From Octopus sinensis (taxonomy: Eukaryota), in contig NW_021832060.1 in the NCBI RefSeq assembly GCF_006345805.1, positions 1-38,437 on the forward strand: 38,437 bases of DNA. Direction: 5' to 3'. Position numbers and translations under genes: made by a program. Shown piece after piece: positions 1 to 34,575 of the stretch. The first letter of the stretch is position 1, and every line of letters starts with the position of its first letter. The notes under the pieces are model-generated. The model did no database searches. It was not told the DNA's origin and worked only from the letters and a program-made list of their open reading frames with translations.

Positions 1-1870
1 AATAATAACAAAACAAAAGAGGGACTCATGAAAACCAAAGACATCCCCATTAGAAGAGGAATATTCCAGGGAGACACGCTCTCTCCACTCCTTTTCTGCT
101 TGGCACTGTCACCTCTATCTGATATGCTAAATAGAACTGGATGCGGATATAAATGTTACGGCAAAACGATCAGCCACCTTTTATATATGGATGACCTAAA
201 ACTATACGCTGCAAATGACAAACAGCTGGAAACACTATTAAAGACAGTTCATGGATTTACCAAAGAAATAGATATGAAATTTGGATTAGAAAAATGCGCC
301 AAAGTAACCATGAAAAGAGGAAAACTAGTAAGAGTAACAACATCACACTAGATAAAACCAATGAAATAAAAGAATTAGACCAAAGCCAAACTTACAAATA
401 CTTAGGAATCCATGAACTAGATAAGACACAACACACACAAATGAAAGAGAAAAAAAAAAAGAATATTATAGACGAGTCAGATCAATACTAAAAACAGAGC
501 TCAATGCTAAAAACAAGATAATAGGTATCAACACTTTAGCTGTCCAGTTATAAGTTACAGCTACAATATCCTTAACTGGACACGAAATGAACTGAACTGT
601 CCAAAATAGATAGGAAAACAAAAAAATACTGACAGGATCTAGAATGCATCACCCAAAATCTGACATAGAAAGACTATATATACAACGTATAGAAAGTGGT
701 AGAGGCCTTATACAGCTGGAAAACTACTATAAAATAACCACCATAGGACTGCAAAAATGCCTACTTCAGAAGGAAGGAAAACTGATCCAGATAGCAGCAA
801 AACACGAGCAAAACAACAAACTGTTCTCAGTATTTAAGGAAGCTGACAAATACAAACAAGAAATCATGCCACCTAATAAACACAAAGAAGAAGAAGATGA
901 TGAAGAAACAACAAAAGCTATAAAACAAATGAAATCCAAACTAAAAATAGAACAGCAACGAGCCATGATAAAACGATGGCAAGAAAAACCCCTTCATGGT
1001 AAATACTGCACTAAACTAAACGCAAAAGAAATAGACAAAGAAAAATCCCAGCAATGGTTGAGAAGCTCAGGACTCAAAGCAGAAACAGAGGGATTTTTAA
1101 TTGCAGCACAAGACCAAAGCCTCCCCACCAGAAATTACCAAAAACATGTAATGAAAAGAAATATTACAAGTAACTGCAGAATATGTGGAGATGGACAAGA
1201 AACAATAAATCATATTATCTCTAGCTGCCCAGTCCTGGCTAAGAAGGAATATATTCACAGACATGACAGAGTTGGAACCTACATACATTGGAAGCTATGC
1301 CAACATTATGGAATAACAACAGAAAAAAGATGGTATAGGCACACACCAGAAAAGGTCACGGAAAACGAGAAAGCAACCATACTCTGGGATATGCCGATAC
1401 ACACAGATAGAGCAATTAAGGCCAACAGACCAGATATAGTTGTCAGAGATCATGAAGAAAAAAAATGCTTTCTAATTGATGTATCAATACCGGCAGATGA
1501 CAACGTGTCTCTAAAAGAAATGGAGAAACTCTCAAAATACAAAGACCTGGAAATAGAGGTAACTAGAATGTGGAACCTGAAAACAGAAAAATTCCTATCA
1601 TAGTAGGTGCATTAGGCATGATAAAAAAATATTCAGACAAATACATAACAAAAACACCAGGACTTACAAACACATATAACATACAGAAAATTGCACTACT
1701 AGGCACTGCACACATCCTACGCAGAACACTTTCCATACAATAACCATCAGAGCATCACAACAAATCACAGCACATACCCAAGGCACACAGAGCTGCGCTC
1801 AGTTGTGAAGTGAAAGCACGCTATAAAAATAAAACTACTGAATAATAATAATAATATTAATAATAACAAA

Positions 1871-4088: not shown

Positions 4089-4405
4089 ATAATTAATCAA
4101 TTTAGGGTAGCAAAAAATTCAATAGAAATTTATCGCTACCAGCGGCCTAGTGGAAAAGAGAAAATAGTCAAAGACTAAAATATATAAATATAACAATTTA
4201 GGAGTGGCCTTAACAGGCCATTCGTCCACTAGAGAGAGCAGCCAGAACTCAAACCGCCAAGCAGTAGTAATTCAGAAATTAGGTGAAAATTTAAAAACGT
4301 TTACCCTAATTCATCTTTTAGAAGATGCATCGTTTCTGTGTTTTTAATGATAAACTAGCTTAATTAAATTAAATTAAACTAATCTATCATAGGTCACACT
4401 TCATC

Positions 4406-4492
4406 AACATTACACCGGGACACGTCAAAAAAGAAACTGACCACACAAAATTCAAGAAGTCTCTGGACAAATTCCTTCAAACAGAGCCGGAC
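4406..4492 (+). pseudogene. Inverted C-terminal fragment of a CR1/L2-group ORF2
   Basis: Translates NITPGHVKKETDHTKFKKSLDKFLQTEPD, resembling FNILPKSLRNLHKVDVAVFKSKLDIFL in ORF 13469-13729. Confidence 0.75.
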
Positions 4493-4612
4493 ATATAAAC
4501 TTATATTTACTGCTGATGGGTTGGCGCGAACACGTTGGTCTTGAAAATTTTAAGACAGATATTCCGGAGGCATTGATACAGACGCCTCGTGTATATTTGT
4601 CTCTCCAAGGTT

Positions 4613-4709
4613 TTTTACTGATGAAGTGTGACCTATGATAGATTAGCTTAATTTAATTTAATTAAGCTAGTTTATCATTAAAAACACAGAAACGATGCAT
4701 CTTCTAAAA
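4613..4709 (+). ncRNA. Type I hammerhead ribozyme-like motif with long stem II, possibly degenerate
   Basis: tttta-CTGATGA-a-gtgt..atgatagattagcttaatt/aattaagctagtttatcat..acac-a-GAAAC-gatgcatc-TTC-taaaa; mismatches at the bases of stems II and III. Confidence 0.6.
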
Positions 4710-4929
4710 GATGAATTAGGGTAAACGTTTTTAAATTTTGACCTAATTTCTGAATTACTACTGCTTGGCGGTTTGAGTTATGGCTGCTCTCTCTAGTGGA
4801 CGAATGGCCTGTTAAGGCCACTCCTAATTGTTATATTTATATATTTTAGTCTTTGACTATTTTCTCTTTCCACTAGGCCGCTGGTAGCGATAAATTTCTA
4901 TTGAATTTTTTGCTACCCTAAATGATTAA

Positions 4930-4987
<58 letters not shown>

Positions 4988-5116
4988 TGTATTATGTAGT
5001 ATATATGTATTTATGTATATATGTATGTATGTATATATATATATATCTATATATACATGCATATATCTATATATATATACATGCATATAACTATATATAT
5101 ATATACATACATACAA

Positions 5117-6310
5117 TTGAGATGAAATGATTGTACCGTATTGTTGTTATGAGATGCGATTTAGATTTTTGTTGTGGACGGATGGCACGTGGTCCAAGCC
5201 TTGGATGTATTTCGAAGGTGATGCCAGCATCATTCGGACAGTGCTGATGGAATATTTTCCACATCATACAGTTAATGTAGCGTTCACGGTGTCGTTGGAG
5301 TGAATACAGTTTCAGTTTCTCTAGTCTACCCCAGTAGTCAAGGTCTGACATGCCATCTATCTTTTTTGTGATTGACCTTTGGGGAGCTTCAATTCTCATA
5401 ATATTTTTTTCTGTGTAGGGAGACCACAGTGGACAGCAGTATTCAAGGTGGGGTCGGGCAAAAGTGGAGAAGAGAAGGATAATGGTGTGGGAATTGCTCG
5501 ACTGGAAGGTTCTGAGAATCCAGGAACACATTCTGCGGGCCATATCAACTTTGCTGCTTATATGTGTAGCCCAGCTTATGTTGTTGTCCACTGTTACTCC
5601 CAAGTCTCTGATGTTGTTAGACGCCATGAGAATTTCTCCAGAAGGAAGGGAGTATGGGAGTTTTAGAGCGTCCTCCCTTCCAAAGTGGATCAGTTCGAAT
5701 TTGTCTTCGTTTAGTAACATGTTATTCTTTTCCGCCCATTGGAGGACAGCCAGTAGGTCTGACTGAAGGCTTATTCGGTCATCCACGCGATTGATGACCT
5801 TCTGGAGCTTGGAATCATCAGCGAAAGTTCTGATGTTATTGTGTTTGATGGTGTCAGTAATATCATTTATGTAGATGATGAAGAGAAGTGGGTCCAACAC
5901 AGTGCCTTGTGGGACACCACTGCTGACTTTGGCTGGGCTGGATTTGACTCCTTCGACTACAACATGTTGGGTTCTGTTAGACAGGAAGCACTTGATCCAC
6001 TGCAGCAGCTTTCCAGTGACACCAATATTGGACAGCTTTCTCAAAAGGATCTTATGATCAACCCTGTCAAAGGCCTTGCTGAAATCAAGGAAGATGACAT
6101 CAGTGTTGGAGCCCTCTCCCAAGGCTCTCAAAATGACATCAAAATGATGCAGTAGCTGCGTCAGGCAAACTCTTCCATTACGGAATCCATGCTGTTTGGA
6201 GTTCAGCATATGACTCTCAAGGAAGTGAGTCATACGCGATCTCAGCACTCTCTCAAATACCTTAATGATATGAGAGGTGAGTGAGATTCGACGGTAATTC
6301 ACGGCAAGCG
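5117..6310 (-). mobile_element. CR1/L2-group LINE fragment, RT domain (uninterrupted ~395 codons)
   Basis: NYRRISLTSH, QHGFR, LDFSKAFDRV, GVPQGTVL.PLLF, FADD, RDLGV, RPHLEYCCPLWSP; cut at both ends by TA repeats. Confidence 0.93.
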
Positions 6311-6331
6311 ATTTGTTTCATACATATATAC

Positions 6332-8303: not shown

Positions 8304-12660
<4,357 letters not shown>

Positions 12661-13339: not shown

Positions 13340-16046
13340 TTTTTCTCTTGTTTCAGCTCAGAGCTGCGGCCATGCTGATGCACCACCATTTTGTGCTACA
13401 TTGTTATTGCGAAGAACCTCGTCTAATATGTGGCACTTGGTGAAGAATGGAGTTTCATATTGCTACTCTCATTTGCACCTCTTGCCGTGAGGTAGGTTCA
13501 TCGGGGGACTCGGCAGGAAGATGTCCAGCTTTGATTTAAAAACCGCTACATCTACTTTGTGCAAGTTCCTCAGACTCTTTGGGAGAATATTAAAAAGCTG
13601 TGGGCCCTTGAAACCCAGGCTGTTGCAGAAGCTGGTCCTGAAGCGTGATGGCATTGCTGGGATCTTTGGCACTATGCAGTGTCGTCCCGTTCTAGCATTG
13701 GTGTAGCTTACATTGCCAAAATTTGACACAATTCCTTCCAGGATCTTCCAGACATATATTACTGCATACCTCTCCGTCTTCTCTCCAGGGAGTAGAGTCT
13801 TAGCTGTTTCAACCTTCCCCAGTAGCTGAACTGTTGCAAAGAGACGATCTTCTTTGTGAATCTTCTCTGGATTGCTTCAAGGTCCGCTGTTAATTTTACA
13901 CTGGTGGGTGACATAGTTGTGAGCAGTAATCCAGGCGGCAGAGGACGAATGTCCGCCAGAGGACCATCATGGTTTCCTTATCTCTGGTTCTGAATGTTCT
14001 TAGGGTTAGGGTTAGGGTTAGCCAGTCGTCTGCACTTTGTCGCCATCCTGGTAATGTGCACTTGGAAAGAGGTATCATCACTCATGTCGATACCCAGGTC
14101 CCTCACAGACTTAGGCTCTGGGATTGAAATTCCCTGTAGACCGGTGTATCCTGTAAGTTTAATATTCAGTTGGATGCTGGTAGCGCAGGGGACCTGGAAT
14201 TTTTCAGCATTAAACTGTATATTATTATCCTCAGCCCATCTGTAGATTGAGTCCAACTCCTGCTGCAGGTGTGCAACATCGCTGGGGTTCTGTATTTTCC
14301 GCGAGACTTTCGTGTCGTCTGCATAGCTGGCCAGAGTGGCTATCCGGGCATTTGAGGACATATCTGAGAGGGCCACTATAAAAAGCAGTGGTCCCAAGAC
14401 AGTGCCCTGTGGAACACCGCGCACTATTTGTGTGTTCATAGAGGTGGCTCCATTAAACACTACTGCCTGACTCCTATCTTTCAGGAAGTCATGTAACCAC
14501 ACTCCAAGTTTTCCAGCTATGTCGAGGTCACGCAGTTTGTGGCATATCATACCATTATCCACCTTGTCAAAAGCTTTTGCAAATCAAGGTAGATTACGTC
14601 CACATTTGATTTGTTGAGTAACTGCCAAACACCAGTCATAATGTTGTAAGAGCTGGGTCAGGCAGCTCCTAACTGGTCGATAACCATGCTGGGTATCACT
14701 CAACAAGTTATTTCCTCAAGGAATGCGATTAGTTTCTTTCTGACTATCCGTTCCATGACTTTCCTGATGTGTGAAGTCAGAGAGATAGGCCTATAGTTTT
14801 GGGTATCTGCTCTACTTCCCCCTTTATGTATTGGGCATATTATTCTCTCTTTCAGCTTGCTTGGCAGTTTGTCATTCGCAAGAAAGCTCTGGAAGAGAAT
14901 CTTGAGGGGTTTTGCCAGGGCATGCTTACACGCTATGAGGAGGATGGCTGGGAAACCATCTGGACCAGCAGCTGAGTTTGTGTCCACTTCATCTATGGCT
15001 AGTAGAACATCTTTTTCGCTAATATCAATACATTCTATTGTAACCGCCTCGCTGGTTATAGTTGAGGCGGCAAAGAAGTCCACTGGTTCATTCACTTGTC
15101 TGTGTTCCAACCGGATGGTAAAGACACTTTTGAACTGGTTATTCAGCATCTCACTGATCTTAGTTGAACTGTCTATGAGGGAGCCGTCCTTTTGGATGAG
15201 GGGTCCTATCTTGTAGTGCACTGAGACTGTTTTTCGCGTAATGAAAGAAGGCCTTTGGGTTTGATTTAATATTTTTATAAACCAGGCTTCTTTGTCTGCT
15301 TTCTCCTTCACATAGGATTGTTGCAGCCTTTTTTCGATCTCCATCAGTGTTGTTTTTAGGCGGGATGTTTCGCTACTTTTGGGATGTTGGTTGAGACGAT
15401 TTGCAACCTTCGTCCATCGTCTCATGAGGATCTTCCTGTCTCTTGGAATCTTGCTCCGATTTGTTTTCGCCTTGTGCTCTGGGACATATTTCTGGCATAC
15501 GGCTTGCACAGAAGACATGAAACCTTCTACTTTCATGTCAATGTCTGGTGTGGAGAGACATTCCGGCCAGTCTCTGGGGATCTCTTTTTGGATCGATTTC
15601 TAATCTGCTTTGTGGAAGTTCAGATTGGAGAGATTTCGGGTGCTTCCTTTAGGCTGTATGTCTCTGGTCACTTTTGGACCAAACATAGACAGCTCTATTA
15701 TGTTGTGATCTGAAACTGATGTCGGTGTCACTTTCACATCATGAATGATGTCCATATTGTTCGTGAAGCAGAGATCCAGAATGTTATTCGCCCTAGTGGC
15801 TTGAGTACAATTTGCTCCATGAATAAGGCATTGGTGAGGTTGAGCAGGGGCTCCACCTTTACTTTCTTGCAATGATTCATTCCTGAGAGTATGTGACCTT
15901 CGGGCCATTTGACGTTGGGGAAGTTGAAATCACCGATAAGAAATATGGTCATGTGGTGTTCCAGATTCATGAGGATTTCTTTAATTATTGTGAGGCAATC
16001 TTCAAACTTGCCTGTGTGATTTGGGGCATCCGGTGGGCAATATGTA
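13340..16046 (-). mobile_element. CR1/L2-group LINE, 5'-truncated within APE, intact 3' end, frameshifted
   Basis: YCPPD, IGDFNFP, NILDLCFTN, SDHNII (APE); SAAGPDGFPA, NYRPISLTSH, GVPQGTVLGPLLF, YADD (RT); GPQLFNILP; 3' stem-loop and A-rich tail at 13340-13387. Confidence 0.92.
14000..14021 (+). repeat. Interstitial telomeric repeat (TTAGGG)3+TTAG inside the LINE ORF
   Basis: ttagggttagggttagggttag interrupts the KCRRLA...LRTFRTRD coding sequence. Confidence 0.85.
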
Positions 16047-17400
16047 TTATGCTTCATTTCCTTTATTGCTGCTAAGACATCAGGAGCGCCAAAGGTTATG
16101 TCCGATAAAGTGTATTGGGGAGTAACATCACTGATACAGCCCAGATCAGTCATATCAGGATTGCTGAAAACAGAGCAGTATTGTTTCTGCAATATCTCTC
16201 CCATGGTTTTGGCATTGTCTTGAAGAATACCATTTTCATCAATCAGAGGGCCAACAGTAGAACCAGTGACTCTGTGTATTTTTGCAAATGAAAAGAACAC
16301 TTTGTGATTGAGTTTGATCTTCTCAATGGCCCAGGCCTCTTCAGCTCTTCTCTGACTATTGATGATAGACATCATGTTGTTTTGGAGTTTATGTTTTTTA
16401 ATCTCTAGCGACGAGATGGCAGTCAGGTTGGTGTGTTGCTGTTGACAGTATTTCAGCTCGTTGATTTTTTTTGTTAATTCTTTTAATTTTCCTGATGAGA
16501 TATTTTCTATTTCTAGGGATTCGACACTTAGATTTGTTTGCAGATCTTAATGGGGTGTGGTTTGCACATATGTTCGTAATGGTGTCTACAAATGACTGCC
16601 AGGACTTTTTGATGTTAGTGGGTGTGTATGTGTGCGTGAAGGACCAATCGACTTGTGCAAGATCATTATTGATCGCTTCCCAGTTTGCATTGTGGAAATC
16701 CATAGTGTCAAATGGATGAACAGGAGGGATGACATTTGTTTTGCATTTTGGCCGGTGAAATCTCAGATCACAGAGAACCATGTCATGGTCGGAGAGTAGG
16801 GTTTTCTCCACTGCAATATTGTGGATAGTATCAGTGTGATTGCTGAAAATTAAGTCTAAGACGTTTTTGTGACATCTCGTTGGTTCGAGCACCAGTTGGG
16901 ACAGGAAGAAATCATCCATGAAGTCAAGAAGCGATTCCACTGCCTCCCTGTCAGGGGTTGAGAGAGAAGAACCTGGCAGACTGTTTGTAGACCAGTCAAC
17001 CCCGGGAAGGTTGAAGTCTCCCGTCATTAAAATGTTGTCAGGTTGACACTGCTGAATGAAACACTTTATGTTGTTGAGGCATTCCTTGAAGCATGGTAGG
17101 GGCGTTTGGGGTGTGGTGTAGAGCCCAACTACTGTTAAGTTGTTGGTTTGACTGAATACAGCGACTGCTTCGCAGTATCCATTGGAAAGTATGTTCATAG
17201 CTTCTGTTGAGAATGAATCATGAACATAAATGGCAGTCCCACCCTTTCTTCTGCCAGCACGATCAGCACGAATGGCTTTGAATTTTTAACTTTCACCTCG
17301 GCTTCCAAGTGGAGGTCACTAAGATGGGTTTCAGTGAGGACGAAGAAAGGGATGTGGTTTGGATGGGCATCGATCCAGTCCTCCAGGGAATTTTATCTTC
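16047..17400 (-). mobile_element. Second CR1/L2-group LINE fragment (APE domain and linker)
   Basis: TETHL, RKGGTAIYV, TGDFNLPGVDW, VLDLIFSN, SDHDMV, KVFFSFAK..VGPL; abuts the neighbouring LINE at ~16046. Confidence 0.88.
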
Positions 17401-18370: not shown

Positions 18371-18484
18371 TATATATATATATATATATATATACATCAC
18401 TGTCAATAATATTCTTGTTTGGAAATACTAAATACATCATAAACTATGTACTACAGACATTACACAACATATGTACTATATTTT

Positions 18485-18846
18485 ATAAGCGATTTAAAAA
18501 ACCCCACAAAAACCGTTAGATTCACTTCAACATTTCATTTTAATTTGTTGAAATCTTTTCGTCACTTTCCGACCGTGACCTGTTCACTGACAAAGCTTCA
18601 TATGTATATATATTATATATATACATATATATATTACGGAGATGTACTTGCATAGCAAGTGACTTGATCTGAGATCGTGTGCTGGAACGAAATAATTGCA
18701 GCGTGGAAGGTGTTTATAGCGATTTAAGAAACACACAAAAACCGTTAGATTCACTTCAACATTTCAATTGAATTTGTTCAAATCTTTTCCTCACTTTCCG
18801 ACCGTGACCTGTTCACTGACAAAGCTTCATATGTATATATATATAT

Positions 18847-18879
<33 letters not shown>

Positions 18880-19058
18880 TACGGAGATGTACTTGCATAG
18901 CAAGTGACTTGATCTGAGATCGTGTGCTGGAACGAAAACAATTGCAGCGTGGAAGGTGTTTATAAGCGATTTAAGAAACACACAAAAACCGTTAGATTCA
19001 CTTCAACATTTCAATTGAATTTGTTCAAATCTTTTCGTCGCTTTCAAACGGCGACCTA
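18485..19058 (-). mobile_element. Three tandem ~200 bp Penelope-like/retrozyme-type units separated by TA tracts (last one truncated)
   Basis: Units at ~18485-18603, 18634-18830 and 18879-19058; reverse complement of 20420-21116; hammerhead-like motifs at 18544-18594 and 18773-18823. Confidence 0.7.
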
Positions 19059-20357
19059 CATTGTCCTGTCAGATTCAGGTGGATTGATCGGTTCTGCGAC
19101 CCCTTTCGGGTGAATTAGAGGTCGTTCTAAACACCCCTTGAAGAGAAAGACAGGCAGAGAGTATGGTAGAGCTGTCATGAGAGGGTGATAGGCAGCAGGC
19201 GATAGAGATAGAGTAAGGAATCTTATAGCAGCTAGAGAGGGTATTGGCAGTAAGAGAGGATGAGGGGAAGAGAGAAGAAAAGTAGTGAGAGAGATAGAGT
19301 ATAAGGCTAAGGGACAGATGTGAGGAAGAATTAGCAGTGAGAGAGGATGAGGGGGCAGAGAAGGACAGGCAGAGAGTATGGTAGAGCTGTCATGAGAGGG
19401 TGATAGGCAGCAGGCGATAGAGATAGAGTAAAGAATCAGAGAGCAGATAGAAAGGCTATAAGCGGTAGAGACAGAGGGAGATGAGGGAGTGGAAGTCAGG
19501 ACAAGGAAGTGAGGTTTTGGGCAGTGGGAGTCGGTCGTCAGAGAATCTTGGGAGCGAGCGATGGGATGCAGGAGTTTGGCAGGCTGGATTTAGCGGTACG
19601 GAGAGATGGAGGTGCAATAATGGGACGCTGGCGATTCAATTAGGAATTCAGGTATTTAATTGTATTGATACGTGTTACGATGTAAAAGAAAAGAAAGAGA
19701 AAAGAAGAGAGAAAAAGAAGGACTCTGATGTAGACGATAATGAACTTTGAACGACTAATACATACTAATACATACACCAACCCTATACATACACACGTCC
19801 AGACCTCTCATACGCACTTATACTCTCTCATACACACACACACACACACTTATACATACTAATACGTACTAATACATACTAATACATACTAATACATACA
19901 CCAACCCCATAGATACGCACGTCCAGACCTCTCATACGCACTAATACTCTCTCATACACACACACACACACACACCCTTATACATACTAATACATACTAA
20001 TACATACACCAACCCTATACATACACACGTCCAGACCCCCCCTACGCACTAATAGCTGGGCATTCAACCTATTATCAACCCTATTATCTCCCCTTATTTC
20101 GCTCTCGCGTCTCATGTTTGATCTTTGACCTCTGGCCGAAATCAGATCGCCATGTTCATTCGTTAGTTACTGCACGCATTTTTTTTCTCTCCTTCTTTCT
20201 GTGTTTTTTTTCTCTCTGTGTATCTTTCTGTTGAAGAGCGTAGGCTCGAAACGTTAAAGACTTGTTTTATTTATATTCCTGAGCGCCATACTAATACAAT
20301 TGTTTGTTTGTTTTCCACCTGCCTTCGTCTTTGTCTATATCATAAAGCTTCCCGTTA
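19059..20357 (+). mobile_element. Non-coding insertion ending in a Penelope-like pseudo-LTR; internal direct repeats (~19148-19230/19363-19445; ~120 bp units 19755-20050)
   Basis: T-rich terminal segment with a minimal hammerhead-like motif, ending at a TA tract; interrupts the third left-hand unit. Confidence 0.5.
20223..20260 (+). ncRNA. Minimal type I hammerhead-like motif with atypical CUGUUGA core
   Basis: tcttt-CTGTTGA-a-gagc(gtag)gctc-GAAA-cg-TT-aaaga. Confidence 0.55.
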
Positions 20358-20378
20358 TATATATATATATATCTATAG

Positions 20379-20419
<41 letters not shown>

Positions 20420-20424
<5 letters not shown>

Positions 20425-20607
20425 GCTTTGTCAGTGAACAGGTCACCGTCTCAAAGCGACGAAAATATTTGGACATCTAACGGTTTTTGTGTGTTTCTTA
20501 AATGGCTTATAAACACCTTCCATGCTGAATTGAATTGTTTCGTTCCAGCACACGATATCAGATCAGGTCACTTGCTATGCAAGTACATCTCCGTAATATA
20601 TATATTG

Positions 20608-20645
<38 letters not shown>

Positions 20646-20835
20646 CATATATATATATATATATGAAGCTTTGTCAGTGAACAGGTCACCGTCTCAAAGC
20701 GACGAAAATATTTGGACATCTAACGGTTTTTGTGTGTTTCTTAAATGGCTTATAAACACCTTCCATGCTGAAATTGTTTTCGTTCCAGCACACGATATCA
20801 GATCAGGTCACTTGCTATGCAAGTACATCTCCGTA

Positions 20836-20866
<31 letters not shown>

Positions 20867-20872
20867 TAATAT

Positions 20873-20918
<46 letters not shown>

Positions 20919-21116
20919 TAAGCTTTGTCAGTGAACAGGTCGCGGTCGGAAAGCGACGAAAATATTTTAACAAATTCAATTTAAATGTTGAAGTGAATCT
21001 AACGGTTTTTGTGTGTTTCTTAAATCGCTTATAAACACCTTCCACGCTGCAATTATTTTCGTTCCAGCACACGATCTCAGATCAGGTCACTTGCTATGCA
21101 AGTACATCTCCGTAAT
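20420..21116 (+). mobile_element. Three tandem ~180-200 bp Penelope-like/retrozyme-type units separated by TA tracts
   Basis: Units ~20420-20597, 20663-20837, 20918-21116, each starting aagctttgtcagtgaacaggtc. Confidence 0.7.
20924..20974 (+). ncRNA. Minimal type I hammerhead with G3-C8 variant core (best of five complete copies)
   Basis: tttgtca-GTGAACA-g-gtcgc(ggtcggaaa)gcgac-GAAA-atat-TT-taacaaa; stem II covaries to gtcac/gtgac in copy 18544-18594. Confidence 0.65.
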
Positions 21117-21364
21117 GTACTTAATTGCTACACAGAAATAAGTAAAAAAAAAAAAACAAGAAAAAACATTTTCTAGTAAAAAAATTGTTTTATTGAATTA
21201 GAAAAAAATTCATTTTAATTAACAAAAAACAAATCAGTAAATCCGGGAATCTTGTTAGTGTTTGTTGTATTGGTTGCAGTACTGGTACTATCAGTGGTAT
21301 TGTCTTGGGTAGTTGTTCCTAGGGATTCTCATGTTGCTGTAACTAGTAGTAGTAATTAGTTAGA

Positions 21365-26384: not shown

Positions 26385-26467
26385 TTAAAAGACTTCGTCC
26401 TGTTTCGGGTGCACAGTAAAGGCTCCGCGGCCCCGGAAGTACTTGGACCCTTATCGAGAGCAGTCGA
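26385..26467 (-). CDS. DCLK: DCLK-like kinase, terminal coding exon (STALDKG/SKYFRGRGAFTVHPKQDEVF*), probable 1 bp deletion
   Basis: Strong acceptor tttttgttgttttttgcag; STALDK matches TTALDK of vertebrate DCLK1 (recalled). Read as-is, the frame runs to TGA at 26348. Confidence 0.75.
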
Positions 26468-26569
26468 CTGCAAAAAACAACAAAAAAAAAAAACGAAAAT
26501 AAAAAAATAAATAAAAAGCAATAAAAAACGTAAAACTGTTTCAATTCCATTTTTTTAATGAAAAAAAAA

Positions 26570-27538
26570 ATCATTTCAGTCATTTCACTGCGGCCATGCT
26601 GGAGCACACCGCCTTTAGTCGAGCAAATCGACCCCGGGACTTATTCTTTGTAAGCCCAGTACTTATTCTATTCTATCGGTCTCTCTTTGCCGAACCGCTA
26701 AGTAACGCTAGGGGGGGACAAACACAGACACACAAACACAGACACACACACTTATATATATATATACATATATACGACAGGCTTCTTTCAGTTTCCGTCT
26801 ACCAAATCCACTCACAAGGCTTTATATATATATATATATACTCTTTTACTCTTTTACTTGTTTCAGTCATTTGACTGCGGCCATGCTGGAGCACCGCCTT
26901 TTTAGTCGAGCAAATCGACCCCGGGACTTATTCTTTGTTAGCCCAGTACTTATTCTATCGGTCTCTTTTGCCGAACCGCTAAGTGACAGGGACGTAAACA
27001 CACCAGCATCGACCCTGGGACTTATTCTTTGTAAGCCCAGTACTTATTCTATCGGTCTCTTTTGCCGAACCGCTAAGTGACGGGGACGTAAACACACCAG
27101 CATCGACCCTGGGACTTATTCTTTGTAAGCCCAGTACTTATTCTATCGGTCTCTTTTGCCGAACCGCTAGGTGACGGGGACGTAAACACACCAGCATCGA
27201 CCCTGGGACTTATTCTTTGTAAGTCCAGTACTTATTCTATCGGTCTCTTTTGCCGAACCGCTAGGTGACGGGGACGTAAACACACCAGCATCGACCCTGG
27301 GACTTATTCTTTGTTAGCCCAGTACATATTCTATCGGTCTCTTTTGCCGAACCGCTAAGTGACGGGGACATAAACACACCAGCATCGACCCTGGGACTTA
27401 TTCTTTGTAAGCCCAATACTTATTCTATCGGTCTCTTTTGCCGAACCGCTAGGTGACGGGGACGTAAACACACCAGCATCGACCCCGGGACTTATTCTTT
27501 GTAAGCCCAGTACTTATTCTATCGGTCTCTTTTGCCGC
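26570..27538 (-). mobile_element. CORE-like SINE fragments with seven tandem 94 bp internal units
   Basis: cgacc anchors at ~26916, 27010, 27104, 27198, 27292, 27386, 27480. Confidence 0.87.
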
Positions 27539-27608
27539 GTATGTACTAGCAAAAATGCGTGTGTGCAACAAACTAGAAAAAATTGCGAGGATTGTGAAAA
27601 GGATAATG

Positions 27609-27680
27609 TGGGACCTGCGCAGGTTTCAGATTTTTCAAGATATGTCTGCCCACATATACTTGATCTATCTTCATCAGCCA
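27609..27680 (-). ncRNA. Type I hammerhead ribozyme (sense to the DCLK pre-mRNA)
   Basis: tgg-CTGATGA-agat..atct-GAAAC-ctgcgcag-GTC-cca. Confidence 0.8.
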
Positions 27681-28282
27681 AACATATACCACGACAACCT
27701 TTCAGATGTTACCACATTAATGCCATTACACTCGACTGAAACGCCGAAACGCTAACAGCACGGGAACGGTGAAGAAGTTTCAATAAATTAGTAATGCAAT
27801 ACTAGAGTATTGCTTTCCAGTAAAGAATAGCCCGTGACGGGAAAATATACAAAGAAGTAAATATATGGCACAACGAAGTACCGATATTTACTGGAAATAG
27901 CGAACGTAATAATACGACGCTAATGTATAGCTTCACCGCGTATGTACTAGCAAAAATGTTCTCCCTGGAGGTAAGACAATTTTTTCTAATTTGTTGCACA
28001 CACGCATTTTTGCTAGTACATACGCGGTGAAGCTATACATTAGCGTCGTATTATTACGTTCGCTATTTCCAGTAAATATCGGTACTTCGTTGGGCCATAT
28101 ATTTACTTCTTTGTATATTTTCCCCTCACGGGCTATTCTTTACTGGAAAGCAATACTCTAGTATTGCATTACTAATTTATTGAAACTTCTTCACCGTTCT
28201 CGTGCTGTTAGCGTTTCGGCGTTTCAGTTGAGTTTAATGGCATTAATGTGGTAACATCTGAAAGGTTGTCGTGGTATATGTT

Positions 28283-28354
28283 TGGCTGATGAAGATAGAT
28301 CAAGTATATGTGGGCAGGCATATCTTGAAAAATCTGAAACCGGCGCCGGTCCCA
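28283..28354 (+). ncRNA. Type I hammerhead ribozyme, predicted cleavage after C28351
   Basis: tgg-CTGATGA-agat(agatcaag..atatg..catat.cttgaaaa)atct-GAAAC-cggcgccg-GTC-cca; palindromic stem III covaries with the minus-strand copy. Confidence 0.82.
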
Positions 28355-28538
28355 TATTATCCTTTTCTAGGTATTTCATCTTTCAGATGTTCTCCCTGGA
28401 GGTAAGACAATTTTTTTCAAGTTTGTTGCACACACGCATTTTTGCTAGTACATACGCGGTGAAGCTATACATTAGCGTCGTATTATTACGTTCGCTATTT
28501 CCAGTAAATATCGGTACTTCATTGTGCCATATATTTAC

Positions 28539-28599
<61 letters not shown>

Positions 28600-28600
<1 letters not shown>

Positions 28601-28812
28601 GTATGTGTGTGTGTTTGTGTGTCTGTGTTTGTTCCCCTAGCATTGCTTGACAACCGATGCTGGTTGTTTATGTCCCTGTCACTTAGCGGTTCGGCAAAAG
28701 AGACCGATAGAATAAGTACTGGGCTCACAAGGAATAAGTCCCGGGGTCGAGTTGCTCGATTAAAGGCGGTGCTCCAACATGGCCGCAGTCAAATGACTGA
28801 AACAAGTAAAAA
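28600..28812 (+). mobile_element. CORE-like SINE 3' half
   Basis: cttgacaaccgatgctgg...catggccgcagtcaaatgactgaaacaagtaaaaga. Confidence 0.85.
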
Positions 28813-28818
28813 GAAGAA

Positions 28819-29693
<875 letters not shown>

Positions 29694-31166
29694 ATGTTTC
29701 TTTATTAGCCACACAGGGCTGCACACAGATAGAACAAATTACAAGGTAGAGCTTTTCATTTGAAGGTTTAAAAAAAAAAAGAAAGGGAAGGGGGAGTTTC
29801 GATCAAAAGGGATCGTAAAAGGAGAGAAAGAGGACAAAAAAAGGGGGGTTAAAAAAAAAAGGGGGAGAGGAAAAAAAAAAATTGATCAATAGTGATCGTT
29901 ATCACAGAAATGTCAATATTAAGTGTAAAGGGGAGGACAGGTGAGGTTTACCCGTGGAAAGAAAAGCCTACGGAAAAGACCACGGTAACCTCGGTCAATG
30001 GAGTCACACGTTATATTTCTTTTTTTTTTTTGCAAATAAGCAACTCTCTGTTTTCAATTTCTGGGTTCATAGGATCATGCTCAAGGTGGCTTCGTCATTC
30101 ATACGTGCCATTCTTGCTACATTCACCCATCTTTTTTTAAAACATTCGCTAGACAAAACTTGCCTCTCTACTCTCACTTTCCTTTTCAAGTGGTACTTGA
30201 AGAAGTTGATGAGAGATTGACCAGAGAGGAAAGTGTTTGTCTCCAATCCTTTCAGACGCGTCCACCAGATACATTCTTTCGCCATAGCCACAATGATGAT
30301 GAAAATAGCTCTTCCTTCCCGTTTGAAGGAGGGAGGCGTGACAATATTGACGATAGACTCAGCTGATAAACCGACTCGTCCCACACGTGACAGCAGTTGT
30401 TCGACATAAGCCCACAGGTCGGAAATTGTTGGACACTGCACGAGTGCGTGCAGAACGGTTTCGTCGCTCTGACCGCATCTCGGGCAGGTCGGCCCCGTGT
30501 TTCTCGAGCCGTGTCTGTAGAGCTTATCCCGAACGGGTAGCGCTTCTCGGTAGCACTGCCAGGCCAGGGATCTCTGGAAGTTGTCCATGGGCCCTGGCCC
30601 GAAAGTCGTCCTGAACAGGCGGGTCAGGTACTCCTCGTCGACGTCCAGGTTCACCCCGAGCTCGTCGTCGTACCTCCCCTCCACTAAACCCCTATAGAAT
30701 GCTTTGGTTGTGTTGAAGTCACTCAAGGTCGACCCAGGACGGCAGAGTTGCTTGAGAGCAACGCGACACTCGCGGTGCCATTCGCCCTTCTTCGGCCTCT
30801 TTTTGATCCACGACTGCAGTTCGGTCATGGAGACGAGCTGCGGGAAAGCGTGCCTCACAAACGGCGACCACACCTGTTCACCGTCGTCTACATAGAGCCA
30901 GAGATGTCGCAGTCTCAGCGCGTGTCTGCGCATCATCAACCACGGCATGCCCAGCCCTCCTTTTAACGGGTGTTGTGACAGCAAATGGATCGCCTGACCA
31001 TCAGGACGCATCCTTTCCACAAGAAGCGAAAGAGAATGCGTTGTAGTTTGGTGATGGTAGGGTCGGGACAAGGTACGACGGTCAGGCGGTAGTAGATGAC
31101 GGACGCGATGTACGTGTTCGCCACCTCCGCCCGACCTTTTAGGGACAGTTTCCTCTCGGCCCATTG
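29694..31166 (-). mobile_element. Tx1/L1-clade LINE, 5'-truncated
   Basis: W..RKLSLKGR, KGGLGMP, zf-RVT-type CPRCGQSDETVLHALVQC; pyrimidine-rich 3' UTR ending aataaagaaacata at the microsatellite. Confidence 0.88.
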
Positions 31167-31316
31167 TTCTGCTATTAATTCCATTCCTAATTCATCCAGA
31201 CATATCCAAAAATTATCGTTCTATGAAAGATACACAGGATCGAACTCCGATCTCAGATTTTAAAAATATAAAAAAAAATTTGTCTTTTCACATTATTTGA
31301 AGAATTTTTCACTTAC

Positions 31317-31415
31317 TGCTATGACTGCCAAACCATCTTTTGGTTTTTTGGTACGTGTGAAATATTGGTTCAATTCCTTGGCCACATGTAATTTGTTATC
31401 TTTCGCAGTGTCATT
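31317..31415 (-). CDS. DCLK: DCLK-like kinase exon, C-terminal tail (NDTAKDNKLHVAKELNQYFTRTKKPKDGLAVIA)
   Basis: 99 bp, phase 0-0, acceptor ttttctcctaatttcctag, donor gtaagtga; resembles DCLK1 [27 protein letters not shown] (recalled). Confidence 0.82.
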
Positions 31416-31449
31416 CTAGGAAATTAGGAGAAAAGAAAATTATTATTTA

Positions 31450-33747
31450 CTAGCAGTATCGCCCGGCGTTGCTCGGGTTTGTAAGGGAAATAACCATATA
31501 AGCATTTTTAGAGAGTTATAGCCAAAAAATAGCAAGAAAATGCATTAAAAATGGGAAAAAATGATGGTAATGTTTTTAAAATCGTAGACTTATCGGAGTT
31601 GCGCGCTAATACCCAGAAGGGCTCGTTATGAAGTATCGCCCGGCGTTGCTCGGGTTTGTAAGGGAAATAACCATATAAGCATTTTTAGAGAGTTATAGCG
31701 AAAAATAGCAAGAAAATGCATTAAAAATGGGAAAAAATGATGGTAATTTTTTTTTTATCGTAGACATATCGTAGACGCGCGCTAATACCCAGAAGGGCTC
31801 GTTATGAAGTATAGCGAGGCGTTGCTCGGGTTTGTAAGGGAAATAACCATATAAGCATTTTTAGAGAGTTATAGCCAAAAATTTGCAAGAAAATGCATTA
31901 AAAATGGGAAAAAATGATGGTAATTTTTTAAAATCGTAGACTTATCGTAGACGCGCGCTAATACCCAGAAGGGCTCGTTATGAAGTATCGCCCGGCATTG
32001 CTCGGGTTTGTAAGGGAAGAAACCATATAAGCATTTTTAGAGAGTTATAGCCAAAAAATAGCAAGAAAATGCATTAAAAATGGGAAAAAATGATGGTAAT
32101 TTTTTTAAAATCGTAGACTTATCGTAGACGCGCGCTAATACCCAGAAGGGCTCGTTATGAAGTATCGCCCGGCGTTGCTCGGGTTTGTAAGGGAAATAAC
32201 CATATAAGCATTTTTAGAGAGTTATAGCCAAAAAATAGCAAGAAAAGCATTAAAAATGGGAAAAAATGATGGTAATGTTTTTAAAATCGTAGACTTATCG
32301 TAGTCGCGCGCTAATACCCAGAAGGGCTCGTTATGAAGTATCGCCCGGCGTTGCTCGGGTTTGTAAGGGAAATAACCATAAAAGCATTTTTAGAGAGTTA
32401 TAGCGAAAAAATAGCAAGAAAATGCATTAAAAATGGGGAAAAATGATGGTAAATGTTTTTTAAATCGTTGACTCATCGTAGACATTTTAAGAGAGTTATT
32501 TCCCTTGTATAATAATGAAAAAATGCATTAAAATGAAAAAAAATGATGGTAAATTGTTTTAAAAATCGTAGACTCATCGTAGACATTTTTAGAGAGTTAC
32601 TTCCCTTATATAATAACGAAAACATGAAATTAAAATGAAAAAAATAATGGTAAATTGTTTTAAAAATCGTAGACTCATCGCAGACGCGCGTTAATACCCA
32701 GAAGGGCTCGATATGAATCACGACTATAAGATACCCGCTTTTGGTTACACTGCACCGCAAAATGTGGGAGTAGTTAGGAATCTAAATCGTATGAGACAGA
32801 CAGCACACAACCTCACTTTTATATATAAAGAATAGCAGTATCGCCCGGCGTTGCTCGGGTTGTAAGGGAAATAACTATATAAGCATTTTTAGAGAGTTAT
32901 AGCCCAAAAATAGCAAAAAATGCATTAAAATGGGAAAAAATGATTGTAAATTTTTTAAATCGTAGACTCATCGTAGACACGCGCTAATACCCAGAAGGGC
33001 TCGATATGAATCACGACTATAAGATACCCGCTTTTGGTTACTCTGCACCGCAAAATGTGGGAGTAGTTAGGAATCTAAATCGTATGAGACAGACAGCACA
33101 CAACCTCACTTTTATATATAAAGACTAGCAGTATCGCCCGGCGTTGTTCGGATTTGTAAGGGAAATAACTATATAAGCATTTTTAGAGAGCTATAGCGAA
33201 AAAATAGCAAGAAAATGCATTAAAAATGGCGAAAAATTATGGTAATTTTTTTTAAATCGTAGACATCGTAGACGCGCGCTAATACCCAGAAGGGCTCGTT
33301 ATGAAGTATCGCCCGGCGTTGCTCGGGTTTGTAAGGGAAATAACTATATAAGCATTTTTAGAGAGTTATAGCGAAAAAATAGCAAGAAAATGCATTAAAA
33401 ATGGGAAAAAATTATGGTAATTTTTTTTTTAATCGTAGACGCGCGCTAATACCCAGACGGGCTCGATATGAATCACGACTATAAGATACCCGGTTTTGGT
33501 TAAATTGCACCGCAAAATGTGGGAGTAGTTAGGAATCTAAATCAGAGGAGACAGAGTCTGACACAACTTCATTTTTATATATAACTAGCAGTATCGCCCG
33601 GCGTTGCTCGGGTTTGTAAGGGAAATAACCATATAAGCATTTTTAGAGAGTTATAGCCAAAAAAATAGCAAAAAATGCATTAAAAATGGGAAAAAATGAT
33701 GGTAATTTTTTTTTCTTACATCGTAGATATATCGTAGACGCGCGCTA
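31450..33747 (-). mobile_element. Non-autonomous Helitron head-to-tail array with ~177 bp subrepeats
   Basis: Minus-strand 3' CTAG preceded by hairpin cccgagcaacgccggg, 5' TC end, CTAG|TC junction at 33124/33125 (degenerate at 32831, 33585); subrepeats at 31455, 31632, 31808, 31984, 32161, 32337, 33305. Confidence 0.78.
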
Positions 33748-33774
33748 TTCTCTCTCTCCCTCTCTCTCTCTCTT

Positions 33775-33834
<60 letters not shown>

Positions 33835-33847
33835 TCATTCTCTCTCC

Positions 33848-33878
<31 letters not shown>

Positions 33879-33961
33879 TCTCTTTAAGTCTCTCTTTCTC
33901 TCTCTTCTCTCTCTCTTTCTCTCTCCCTCTCCCTCTCTCTTTCTCTCTCTCATCTCTCTCC

Positions 33962-33992
<31 letters not shown>

Positions 33993-34468
33993 CCTCTCTC
34001 TCTCTCTCTCTTTCACTCTCTTATTCTCTATCCCTCTCTCTCTTTCTCTCCCTCTTTCTCTCTCCCTCCCTCTCTCTCTCTCTTTCTCCCTCCCTCTCTC
34101 TCTCTCTTTCTCTCATTCTCTCTCCCTCTCTCTCTTTCTCTCTTCCTCCCTCTCTCTCTCACTTTCTCTCTCACTTTCTCTCTCTTTCTCTCTCACTTTC
34201 TCTCTCTCTTTCTCTCTCTCCCTCTCTCCCTCTCTCTCTTTCTCTCCCTTTTTCTCTCTCTCTCTCTTCTCTCACCTTCTACTCTCTCTCTCTCTCTTTC
34301 TCTCTCCATCTCTCTCTCTTTCTCTCCTTTTTCTCTCTCTCTCTCTTCTCTCTCCTTCTCTCTCTCCCTTTTTCTCTCTCTCTCTCTTCTCTCTCTCTTC
34401 TCTCTCTCTCTCTTTCTCTCTCCCTCTCTCTCTCGCTTTCTCTCTCTCTTTCTCCCTCCCTCTCTCTT
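33748..34468. repeat. (CT)n-rich microsatellite
   Basis: Directly visible. Confidence 0.97.
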
Positions 34469-34511
34469 AACACAGAAAGCTGTATCTCAAAAAGGTTCTA
34501 AATAAACTCAC

Positions 34512-34575
34512 AGCAACCCAAGGATGGTCCAAAACCTCGGCAGCGGAGAACCTGAAGCATGTGTTCAATCAAGTC
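34512..34575 (-). CDS. DCLK: DCLK-like kinase exon, subdomain XI (DLIEHMLQV../RFSAAEVLDHPWVA), frameshifting deletion
   Basis: Acceptor tttttttttatacag, donor gtgagt; two frames match ELITMMLLV and RFSAVQVLEHPWVN of DCLK1; 64 bp versus 81 bp expected. Confidence 0.82.

What the first reader, a model, noticed from the sequence alone, without database searches (positions are those of the whole stretch)
27536..28540. Canonical hammerhead pair with compensatory stem III inside the DCLK last intron
Seen: both copies have complete CUGAUGA/GAAAC/GUC cores. Stem III differs by a double compensatory change (cggcgccg vs ctgcgcag), so the two arms are diverged copies that kept the structure. The 27609-27680 copy is sense to the DCLK pre-mRNA, and the ~420 bp inverted duplication would fold into long dsRNA. 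Inference: possible intronic self-cleavage competing with hairpin formation, and a candidate ADAR substrate given the high A-to-I editing known in coleoids. Stem I is only ~3 bp, so activity may need dimerisation.
Basis: partly seen in the sequence, partly recalled or inferred. Interest (0 to 1): 0.7.

Follow-up and report, generated by a model that had tools for sequence, protein, structure and literature searches.

The report
Penelope-type hammerhead repeat in DCLK intron
The two hammerhead ribozyme motifs are real, but they belong to a short repeat scattered across the genome, likely a protein-less hitch-hiker of Penelope-like jumping genes, and this copy sits back-to-back in an intron of a duplicated DCLK kinase gene, where a long hairpin is predicted to keep the ribozyme from folding.

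Summary
Both hammerhead cores are intact (C3 28286+, 27677-) and differ by a U-A/G-C swap in a palindromic helix III. They are two arms of one insert of a 431-bp repeat with 130 exact core matches genome-wide. Of 66 other loci, 40 are head-to-head like this one, 34 of those end at unit base ~162 on one arm and ~224 on the other, and 98 of 101 such ends run into (TA)n: Penelope-like hallmarks. The swap is a family polymorphism (43 G-C, 30 U-A of 79 copies), not a DCLK-specific adaptation. Read-through makes the antisense arm first, and the active fold costs about 99 kcal/mol against the hairpin, so cleavage here is unlikely. Stem I is 3+3 bp. The DCLK segment has 9-12 copies in the assembly; this one carries two frameshifts; three copies lack the plus unit, freeing the sense ribozyme. 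No autonomous partner was found; cleavage, expression and editing are untested. The scan earlier reported similar Penelope hammerhead inserts in shark and ray introns. Verdict: new member of a known kind, low interest.

The parts
27536..27958 (-). Left arm of the insert, 5'-truncated repeat copy (unit bases 49-411, a 10-nt replacement of the acceptor/ATG/donor stretch, then unit bases 21-71, cut off against the 94-bp satellite)
27606..27685 (-). Type I hammerhead sense to DCLK: C3 at 27677, cleavage site after C17 at 27612, U-A form of the palindromic helix III
27957..28387 (+). One full 431-bp repeat unit (38.7% GC); unit bases 1-48 (27957-28004) form the spacer of the hairpin
28278..28357 (+). 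Type I hammerhead antisense to DCLK: C3 at 28286, C17 at 28351, G-C form of helix III
28387..28403 (+). Acceptor-ATG-15 nt-donor (GT at 28402) motif 36 nt after the cleavage site, present in nearly all family copies; likely the remnant start and intron of the parent element (inferred)
   Evidence: sequence
28388..28542 (+). Partial tandem unit (bases 1-154), the family's '162' 3' end eroded by a (CT)n run
28543..28590 (.). (CT)n(TA)n microsatellite, the family's usual insertion target
26914..27537 (.). 94-bp satellite (6.6 copies) abutting the truncated left arm
34512..34575 (-). DCLK-like kinase end exon, 64 nt here versus 81 nt in 6 of the 9 other copies: 17-nt frameshifting deletion
31317..31415 (-). 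DCLK-like penultimate exon, open for 33 codons
26385..26467 (-). DCLK-like last coding exon; 1 nt shorter than in the 8 other copies (frameshift or assembly error)

Best explanation
The feature is one head-to-head insert of a dispersed 431-bp hammerhead-bearing repeat, likely a non-autonomous Penelope-like element (non-LTR retrozyme), lying in an intron of a duplicated DCLK segment, where its sense ribozyme is predicted to be locked in a 363-bp hairpin and so would not cut the pre-mRNA. Shown: dispersion, two fixed 3' ends 62 nt apart, inverted 5'-truncated arms, short tandems, (TA)n flanks, conserved core, two helix III forms. Inferred mechanism: RNA from tandem source copies folds as a double hammerhead through the 12-nt palindrome and is cut to 431-nt monomers (possibly circularised); an unidentified Penelope-type RT/GIY-YIG protein nicks (TA)n DNA and starts reverse transcription at two internal sites (unit bases ~162 and ~224), one from each target strand, giving two outward-pointing arms. 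Here the two arms took different helix III forms (two templates or later conversion). The insert predates the 9-12-fold amplification of the DCLK segment and has since been eroded, flipped or partly deleted in paralogs. If the intron is transcribed the hairpin would be an ordinary ADAR target.
For: 130 exact matches of a core 22-mer on most large contigs, reversed control 0; 136 matches of a helix III pattern, control 1. Of 66 independent loci: 40 head-to-head, 34 of these with one arm ending at 150-164 and the other at 220-225; 101 of 106 3' ends in those two classes, 98 of 101 followed by (TA)4 or more within 30 nt; 18 of 20 further loci are family members with the same look (not tallied). 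These match the inverted 5'-truncated copy, one-sided tail and microsatellite bias in PMC8557442, dual motifs 100-700 bp apart on opposite strands in PMC4209133, and two internal RT starts defining the tail in PMC11167929. Helix III pair 386/391: G-C 43, U-A 30, broken 6 of 79 copies. Core substitutions 1 of 474 cells versus 596 of 20137 elsewhere in copies chosen by whole-unit similarity. Tandem copy L010: cleavage sites 431 nt apart, double hammerhead -139.3 versus two monomers -124.4 kcal/mol. Active fold in the full insert about 99 kcal/mol above the hairpin. Paralogs: 3 of 11 lack the plus unit, 1 lost the sense ribozyme, 1 has a flipped spacer, C29 has a broken U16.1 in the plus core.
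Against: No autonomous partner found: the unit matched none of 30 GIY-YIG loci and, in 8 longer ones, only one 33-nt stretch at E 0.023; tblastn with 3 ORFs from two local PLE families found no ORF continuous with a unit, but only 150 of 5029 GIY-YIG candidates were scored. The tail is 62 nt, not the 30-40 nt in PMC8557442. At column level the core's lack of shared variants is not significant (0 of 12 versus 76 of 420, p 0.14) and 39 of the 66 loci were picked by an exact core match, which inflates core conservation. The DCLK-sense core is kept intact with the U-A helix in 8 of 11 paralogs, and its arm has lost the acceptor and donor motifs, which could reflect selection. Isolated monomer active-fold probability is only about 1e-4 by nearest-neighbour energies, and in the tandem the double hammerhead is still 15 kcal/mol above the MFE, so activity of the family is itself unproven.
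Confidence: 0.86

Rival explanations
1. Domesticated intronic ribozyme switch: the sense hammerhead cuts DCLK pre-mRNA in competition with the hairpin and tunes DCLK output.
For: Intact sense core in 8 of 11 paralogs; splice-like motifs deleted only from the sense arm; in three paralogs without the plus unit the active fold is only 6.5 kcal/mol above the MFE (one tested, L147).
Against: Antisense arm is made first and the active fold costs about 99 kcal/mol in this copy; no cis dimer partner on the same strand; the window's DCLK copy has a 17-nt and a 1-nt frameshift; over a hundred other copies sit in (TA)n runs elsewhere; arms 91-99% identical to the family are young enough to keep an intact core without selection.
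Confidence: 0.04
2. The hairpin is kept as a functional ADAR substrate that affects DCLK splicing, retention or nearby recoding.
For: 363-bp, 98% duplex; young repeats are the main A-to-I targets in animals and octopus has the highest editing rate among the species sampled (10.1101/2020.01.19.911685, passages).
Against: The hairpin is a by-product of the insertion geometry shared by 40 of 66 loci; it is cut to about 106 bp in 3 of 11 paralogs and nearly lost in a fourth; no locus-resolved editing was seen.
Confidence: 0.05
3. Same family, different history: two separate insertions (a G-C form copy landing on an older U-A form copy), not one two-armed event.
For: Arms carry different helix III forms, whereas 11 of 12 independent multi-hammerhead loci carry one pair type throughout (the twelfth has a decayed A-C); the left arm has its own junction deletion.
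Against: Junction geometry (arms abutting at 5' ends, 2-nt overlap) is that of single events; another independent locus, L162, also has U-A on one arm and G-C on the other with otherwise the same haplotype; both arms here share a mixed haplotype at unit bases 248-357, pointing to conversion between arms.
Confidence: 0.2
4. The many DCLK copies are assembly redundancy, so the window is just a noisy read-out of the single true DCLK gene.
For: Copies are 92-98% identical with many homopolymer indels and lie on small unplaced contigs; only C29 is a large contig.
Against: 9-12 copies of four different exons with clean structural differences (loss of exactly one unit in 3, spacer inversion in 1, different repeat lengths) exceed two haplotypes.
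Confidence: 0.2

Closest known systems
Metazoan non-LTR retrozymes (Cervera and de la Pena 2020, PMC7229834; Li, Clavereau and Pollet 2026, 10.64898/2026.07.22.740005)
   Same: Protein-less 150-450 bp low-GC unit with one type I hammerhead, dispersed monomers and short tandems, frequent in introns (about 43% of Xenopus copies per the preprint), dimer-prone ribozyme, proposed PLE origin.
   Different: Mostly one-and-a-half units with an inverted arm rather than long arrays; long interrupted stem II (43 nt region) and 4-bp plus tetraloop helix III rather than canonical 4-bp stem II and 1-2 bp helix III; the window locus fails the preprint's 'two consecutive units' criterion; circRNA not tested.
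pLTR hammerheads and truncated copies of endonuclease-bearing Penelope-like elements (PMC4209133, PMC8557442, PMC11167929)
   Same: Inverted 5'-truncated copy next to a partial tandem, tail on one end only, (TA)n target, palindromic helix III, large helix II, splice signals beside the ribozyme, two 3' ends downstream of an ATG.
   Different: No RT/GIY-YIG ORF in or beside any copy examined; tail 62 nt instead of 30-40 nt; clade of the partner unknown.
Conserved intronic hammerheads of amniotes (HH9/HH10, RECK and C10orf118 introns; names recalled, not from a call)
   Same: Type I hammerhead in a host intron, sense to the gene.
   Different: Those are single-copy, deeply conserved and free of an antisense arm (recalled); this one is a young repeat copy masked by its own complement.

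Membership tests
Type I hammerhead ribozyme | Core C3 U4 G5 A6 N7 G8 A9, G12 A13 A14, A15.1-U16.1, H17 | tested here: met
   Both copies complete; core letters in 77-79 of 79 family copies, partly by selection of loci
Type I hammerhead ribozyme | Three helices around the core, stem I open | tested here: met
   Stem II 4+5+6 bp, helix III 4 bp plus loop or 12-bp palindrome, stem I 3+3 bp with a 2-nt bulge; predicted, covariation only at one helix III pair
Type I hammerhead ribozyme | Loop 1 / loop 2 tertiary contact | not tested
   Stem II is long and its loop varies between subfamilies; contact not modelled
Type I hammerhead ribozyme | Self-cleavage after H17 | not testable with these tools
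   Needs an in vitro assay or raw stranded reads; only contigs were offered
Non-autonomous Penelope-like element | 5'-truncated inverted copy adjacent to partial tandem (pLTR-type structure) | tested here: met
   40 of 66 independent loci head-to-head; tandems in L009, L010, L016, L019, L021, L028
Non-autonomous Penelope-like element | Tail extension on one end only | tested here: met
   34 of 40 two-armed loci end at ~162 and ~224; 62 nt, longer than the published 30-40 nt; the window's own tail end is deleted
Non-autonomous Penelope-like element | Insertion into AT-rich or microsatellite DNA | tested here: met
   98 of 101 canonical ends followed by (TA)n
Non-autonomous Penelope-like element | Sequence shared with the pLTR of an autonomous RT plus GIY-YIG element | tested here: inconclusive
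   No convincing match in 38 GIY-YIG loci of 5029 candidates; no continuous ORF beside family copies
Non-autonomous Penelope-like element | Spliceosomal intron signals in the pLTR | tested here: inconclusive
   Acceptor, ATG and GTAAG donor motif conserved after the ribozyme; splicing not shown
Autonomous Penelope-like element | Own RT and GIY-YIG ORF | tested here: not met
   Longest stop-to-stop frame wholly inside 27536-28542 is 76 aa
Non-LTR retrozyme | 150-450 bp, low-GC, non-coding unit with one type I hammerhead, in tandem | tested here: met
   431 bp, 38.7% GC, cleavage sites 431 nt apart in L010; met by the family, not by the window locus whose two motifs are inverted
Non-LTR retrozyme | Expressed as linear and circular monomer RNA | not testable with these tools
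   No run on record as RNA was listed
Domesticated intronic hammerhead | Single copy, conserved at an orthologous intron, free to fold | tested here: not met
   130 or more copies, variable among paralogs, masked by 99 kcal/mol; other species not available

The most novel reading that the evidence does not exclude
An amplified DCLK cluster carries a copy-variable ribozyme switch: in copies with the full insert the sense hammerhead is sealed by its antisense arm, while in the three copies that lost the plus unit (C4560, C9271, C172) it is free, cuts the last intron during transcription (alone or by pairing palindromes with another transcript), and so silences or truncates those paralogs; recombination between the insert's direct repeats would flip copies between the two states.
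Probability: 0.06. Interest if true: 0.6.

Novelty: new member of a known kind. Interest (0 to 1): 0.2.

Why it matters
As an ordinary insert it matters little for DCLK. I found no paper describing it (searches: hammerhead + Penelope + octopus, 5 papers; hammerhead ribozyme + cephalopod, 4 papers; listings only, apart from PMC8557442 passages). Repeat libraries and paper supplements were not seen and may already hold it. The 9-12 copies of the DCLK kinase region are a separate lead (doublecortin-like kinase + octopus: 0 papers).

Tried and rejected
Rfam scan: no hammerhead family at E<=1; probably the long stem II (inference). Expression: no RNA holder listed. Laying four contig-only runs gave short pieces from many family copies, so nothing is locus-specific; one low-depth contig set in X5 had T>C at 7 places of the left arm, 4 of them absent from X15 and seen as G in 0, 1, 0 and 0 of 47-49 genomic copies, but that contig has 17 differences in 195 nt, no matched DNA and an unverified RNA label, so it is not counted as editing. 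Splicing of the DCLK intron remains unexamined. Search for the autonomous partner failed: unit versus 30 GIY-YIG loci and 8 longer ones; tblastn of 3 ORFs against family loci hit only separate fragments, the nearest (L120) beyond the (TA)n flank. The 33-aa penultimate exon had no PDB hit, so DCLK identity rests on upstream exons of the C29 paralog and on recalled likeness of the C-terminal exons. DCX domain search (9 hits, none on C29; translations) did not settle whether the DCLK copies are full length. Whether 5' truncations pile up at the cleavage site could not be judged because most loci were chosen for holding the ribozyme. Rejected: local hairpin duplication (family is dispersed), miRNA/snoRNA (Rfam hits are microsatellite-driven), DNA transposon with terminal inverted repeats (arm lengths vary, 26 of 66 loci are not two-armed, ends differ by 62 nt). 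My checkpoint note said no independent locus had mixed arms; later showed one (L162), and L130 differs at the palindrome centre. Rows dropped before the counts: five overlapping loci (L014, L023, L024, L071, L077) and all DCLK-segment paralogs.

Full report
Observation. The window is a whole 38,437-bp contig (C8531) of a 2.72-Gb animal assembly. Two complete type I hammerhead cores are present, C3 at 28286 to C17 at 28351 on + and 27677 to 27612 on -. They lie in inverted arms of 363 bp, 27596-27958 and 28005-28367, 98% complementary, 46 nt apart. Nine positions differ over that span and two of them are one helix III pair, G-C on + and U-A on -, each giving a perfect 12-nt palindrome. The + arm continues into a partial direct repeat, which defines a 431-bp unit (27957-28387, 38.7% GC). 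Rfam finds no hammerhead at E<=1.

Ribozyme anatomy. Stem II is long and interrupted (4+5+6 bp). Helix III is 4 bp with a tetraloop as a monomer (-1.8 or -3.3 kcal/mol) or 12 bp as a homodimer (-23.5 or -26.5; mixed duplex -14.1). Stem I can be 3 bp, a 2-nt bulge and 3 bp; these pairs are present in 73-76 of 76 family copies but hardly vary, so they give no covariation support. In a tandem copy (L010) cleavage sites are 431 nt apart, the palindromes pair even in the MFE, and the double hammerhead (-139.3) beats two monomers (-124.4) though not the MFE (-154.3). So the family likely works as a dimer, because of helix III, as described for metazoan type I motifs (PMC4209133, parts 1-2 of 4 read).

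The element is a dispersed repeat. The unit has 138 matches among the 40 best of 1359 candidates; an exact 22-mer over the 5' core occurs 130 times, reversed control 0; a helix III pattern 136 times, control 1. I mapped 66 independent loci (27 single core hits; five overlapping loci and the DCLK paralogs dropped). Forty are head-to-head; in 34 of them one arm ends at unit base 150-164 and the other at 220-225. Of 106 3' ends, 59 and 42 fall in these classes, and 98 of those 101 run into (TA)n. Eighteen of 20 more loci look the same (not tallied). An inverted 5'-truncated copy beside a partial tandem, a tail on one end only and microsatellite bias are the stated marks of Penelope-like insertions (PMC8557442, passages); two internal reverse-transcription starts produce the tail in vitro, and hammerhead cleavage was not needed for insertion there (PMC11167929, passages). 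Opposite-strand hammerhead pairs 100-700 bp apart were already noted. Unit size, GC and lack of an ORF fit non-LTR retrozymes (PMC7229834, passages), argued to be non-autonomous PLE derivatives (10.64898/2026.07.22.740005, parts 1-2 of 5 read). The genome has many RT plus GIY-YIG elements, but none of the 38 loci examined shares the unit, so the mobilising partner is inferred, not shown.

The compensatory change. Across 79 hammerhead copies at independent loci the pair is G-C in 43, U-A in 30 and broken in 6, and it tracks other subfamily sites. It is a family polymorphism that probably reflects selection on source elements, possibly a single event, and palindrome correction during copying cannot be excluded. 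Eleven of 12 independent multi-hammerhead loci carry one pair type; the window and L162 carry both, which suggests two templates per event or conversion between arms. Core conservation is suggestive (1 of 474 versus 596 of 20137 cells) but not significant per column (p 0.14).

Host gene. Three minus-strand exons at 34512-34575, 31317-31415 and from 26467 flank the insert. The syntenic C29 copy continues upstream into kinase exons whose best PDB hits are DCLK1. Four exons occur in 12, 10, 9 and 10 copies. The window copy has a 17-nt deletion in the kinase end exon (64 nt versus 81 nt in 6 of 9 others) and a 1-nt deletion in the last exon (versus 8 of 8 others); the latter may be an assembly error. 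All 9 copies with the last exon carry the insert, so it predates the amplification. Among 11 copies with insert sequence, 3 lack the plus unit, 1 lost the sense ribozyme, 1 has a flipped spacer and a damaged sense helix III, 1 has a half-converted helix III, and C29 has a broken plus core; 8 keep the intact U-A sense core. Three further contigs (L144-L146) gave no insert match and no last exon in the stretch fetched, so no clean empty site was seen.

How it most likely behaves here. Because the arms point outward, DCLK transcription makes the antisense arm about 600 nt before the sense ribozyme; the same holds for the other strand (from the layout). Forcing the active fold costs about 99 kcal/mol on the DCLK strand and 106 on the other. 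Only one core is sense per strand, so no cis dimer is possible. Cleavage of this pre-mRNA is therefore predicted to be negligible. In a short paralog the cost drops to 6.5 kcal/mol (L147), close to the isolated motif (about 4.5); this is the basis of the novel case. ADAR editing of the hairpin is likely if the intron is transcribed, since young repeats are the main targets in animals (10.1101/2020.01.19.911685, passages), but the data available were contigs from many family copies and cannot show it.

Verdict. Observation largely right, interpretation mostly not. New member of a known kind; interest 0.2. Not found in print (listings); supplements and repeat libraries were not seen. Two earlier scan notes describe comparable Penelope hammerhead inserts in introns of other genomes; none for this genome or sequence.

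Noticed in passing
window 26385-34575; G000 C29:1,151,600-1,184,200 and about ten small contigs: The DCLK kinase and 3' region is present in 9-12 copies with different repeat lengths and several damaged exons; the C29 copy reads APD instead of APE. True amplification or assembly redundancy is open.
   Followed up: partly
window 27586-27595 versus 28368-28408: The arm that is sense to DCLK has lost the family's acceptor, ATG and donor motifs, replaced by 10 nt; all 10 full matches are DCLK paralogs. One event; could be selection against a cryptic 15-nt exon.
   Followed up: partly
L038, L047, L050-L053, L058, L060, L082, L043: Autonomous RT plus GIY-YIG elements in this genome carry a different hammerhead with the U3-A8 core variant and a short palindromic helix III (10 of 38 loci by a strict descriptor), like the Schistosoma variant in PMC4209133.
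   Followed up: partly
L085:374-4074, L086, L087: A young 4.8-kb Penelope-like family (98-99% identical copies) has a 479-aa upstream frame with 138-bp repeats and no Pfam match in front of a 781-aa RT plus GIY-YIG frame.
   Followed up: no
L162 (C1:8,387,437-8,388,272) and L130: Independent insertions whose two arms carry different helix III palindromes, as in the window.
   Followed up: partly
L152 (C1360): The 48-nt spacer between the arms is inverted relative to the other paralogs, a sign of recombination between the inverted arms.
   Followed up: no
window 4198-4827: Another near-perfect inverted repeat (209-nt arms, 99%, 212 nt apart) with a CTGATGA at 4618; possibly another Penelope-type fold-back.
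   Followed up: no
window 18482-21119: A 229-247 bp repeat in tandem and inverted arrays separated by (TA)n runs, a similar microsatellite-targeting layout.
   Followed up: no
window 614-1603, 5091-6317, 8304-11769, 13469-17285, 30067-31191: Broken LINE fragments (RVT_1, endonuclease, zf-RVT domains); the last lies in the same DCLK intron and is absent from the shorter paralogs by spacing.
   Followed up: no
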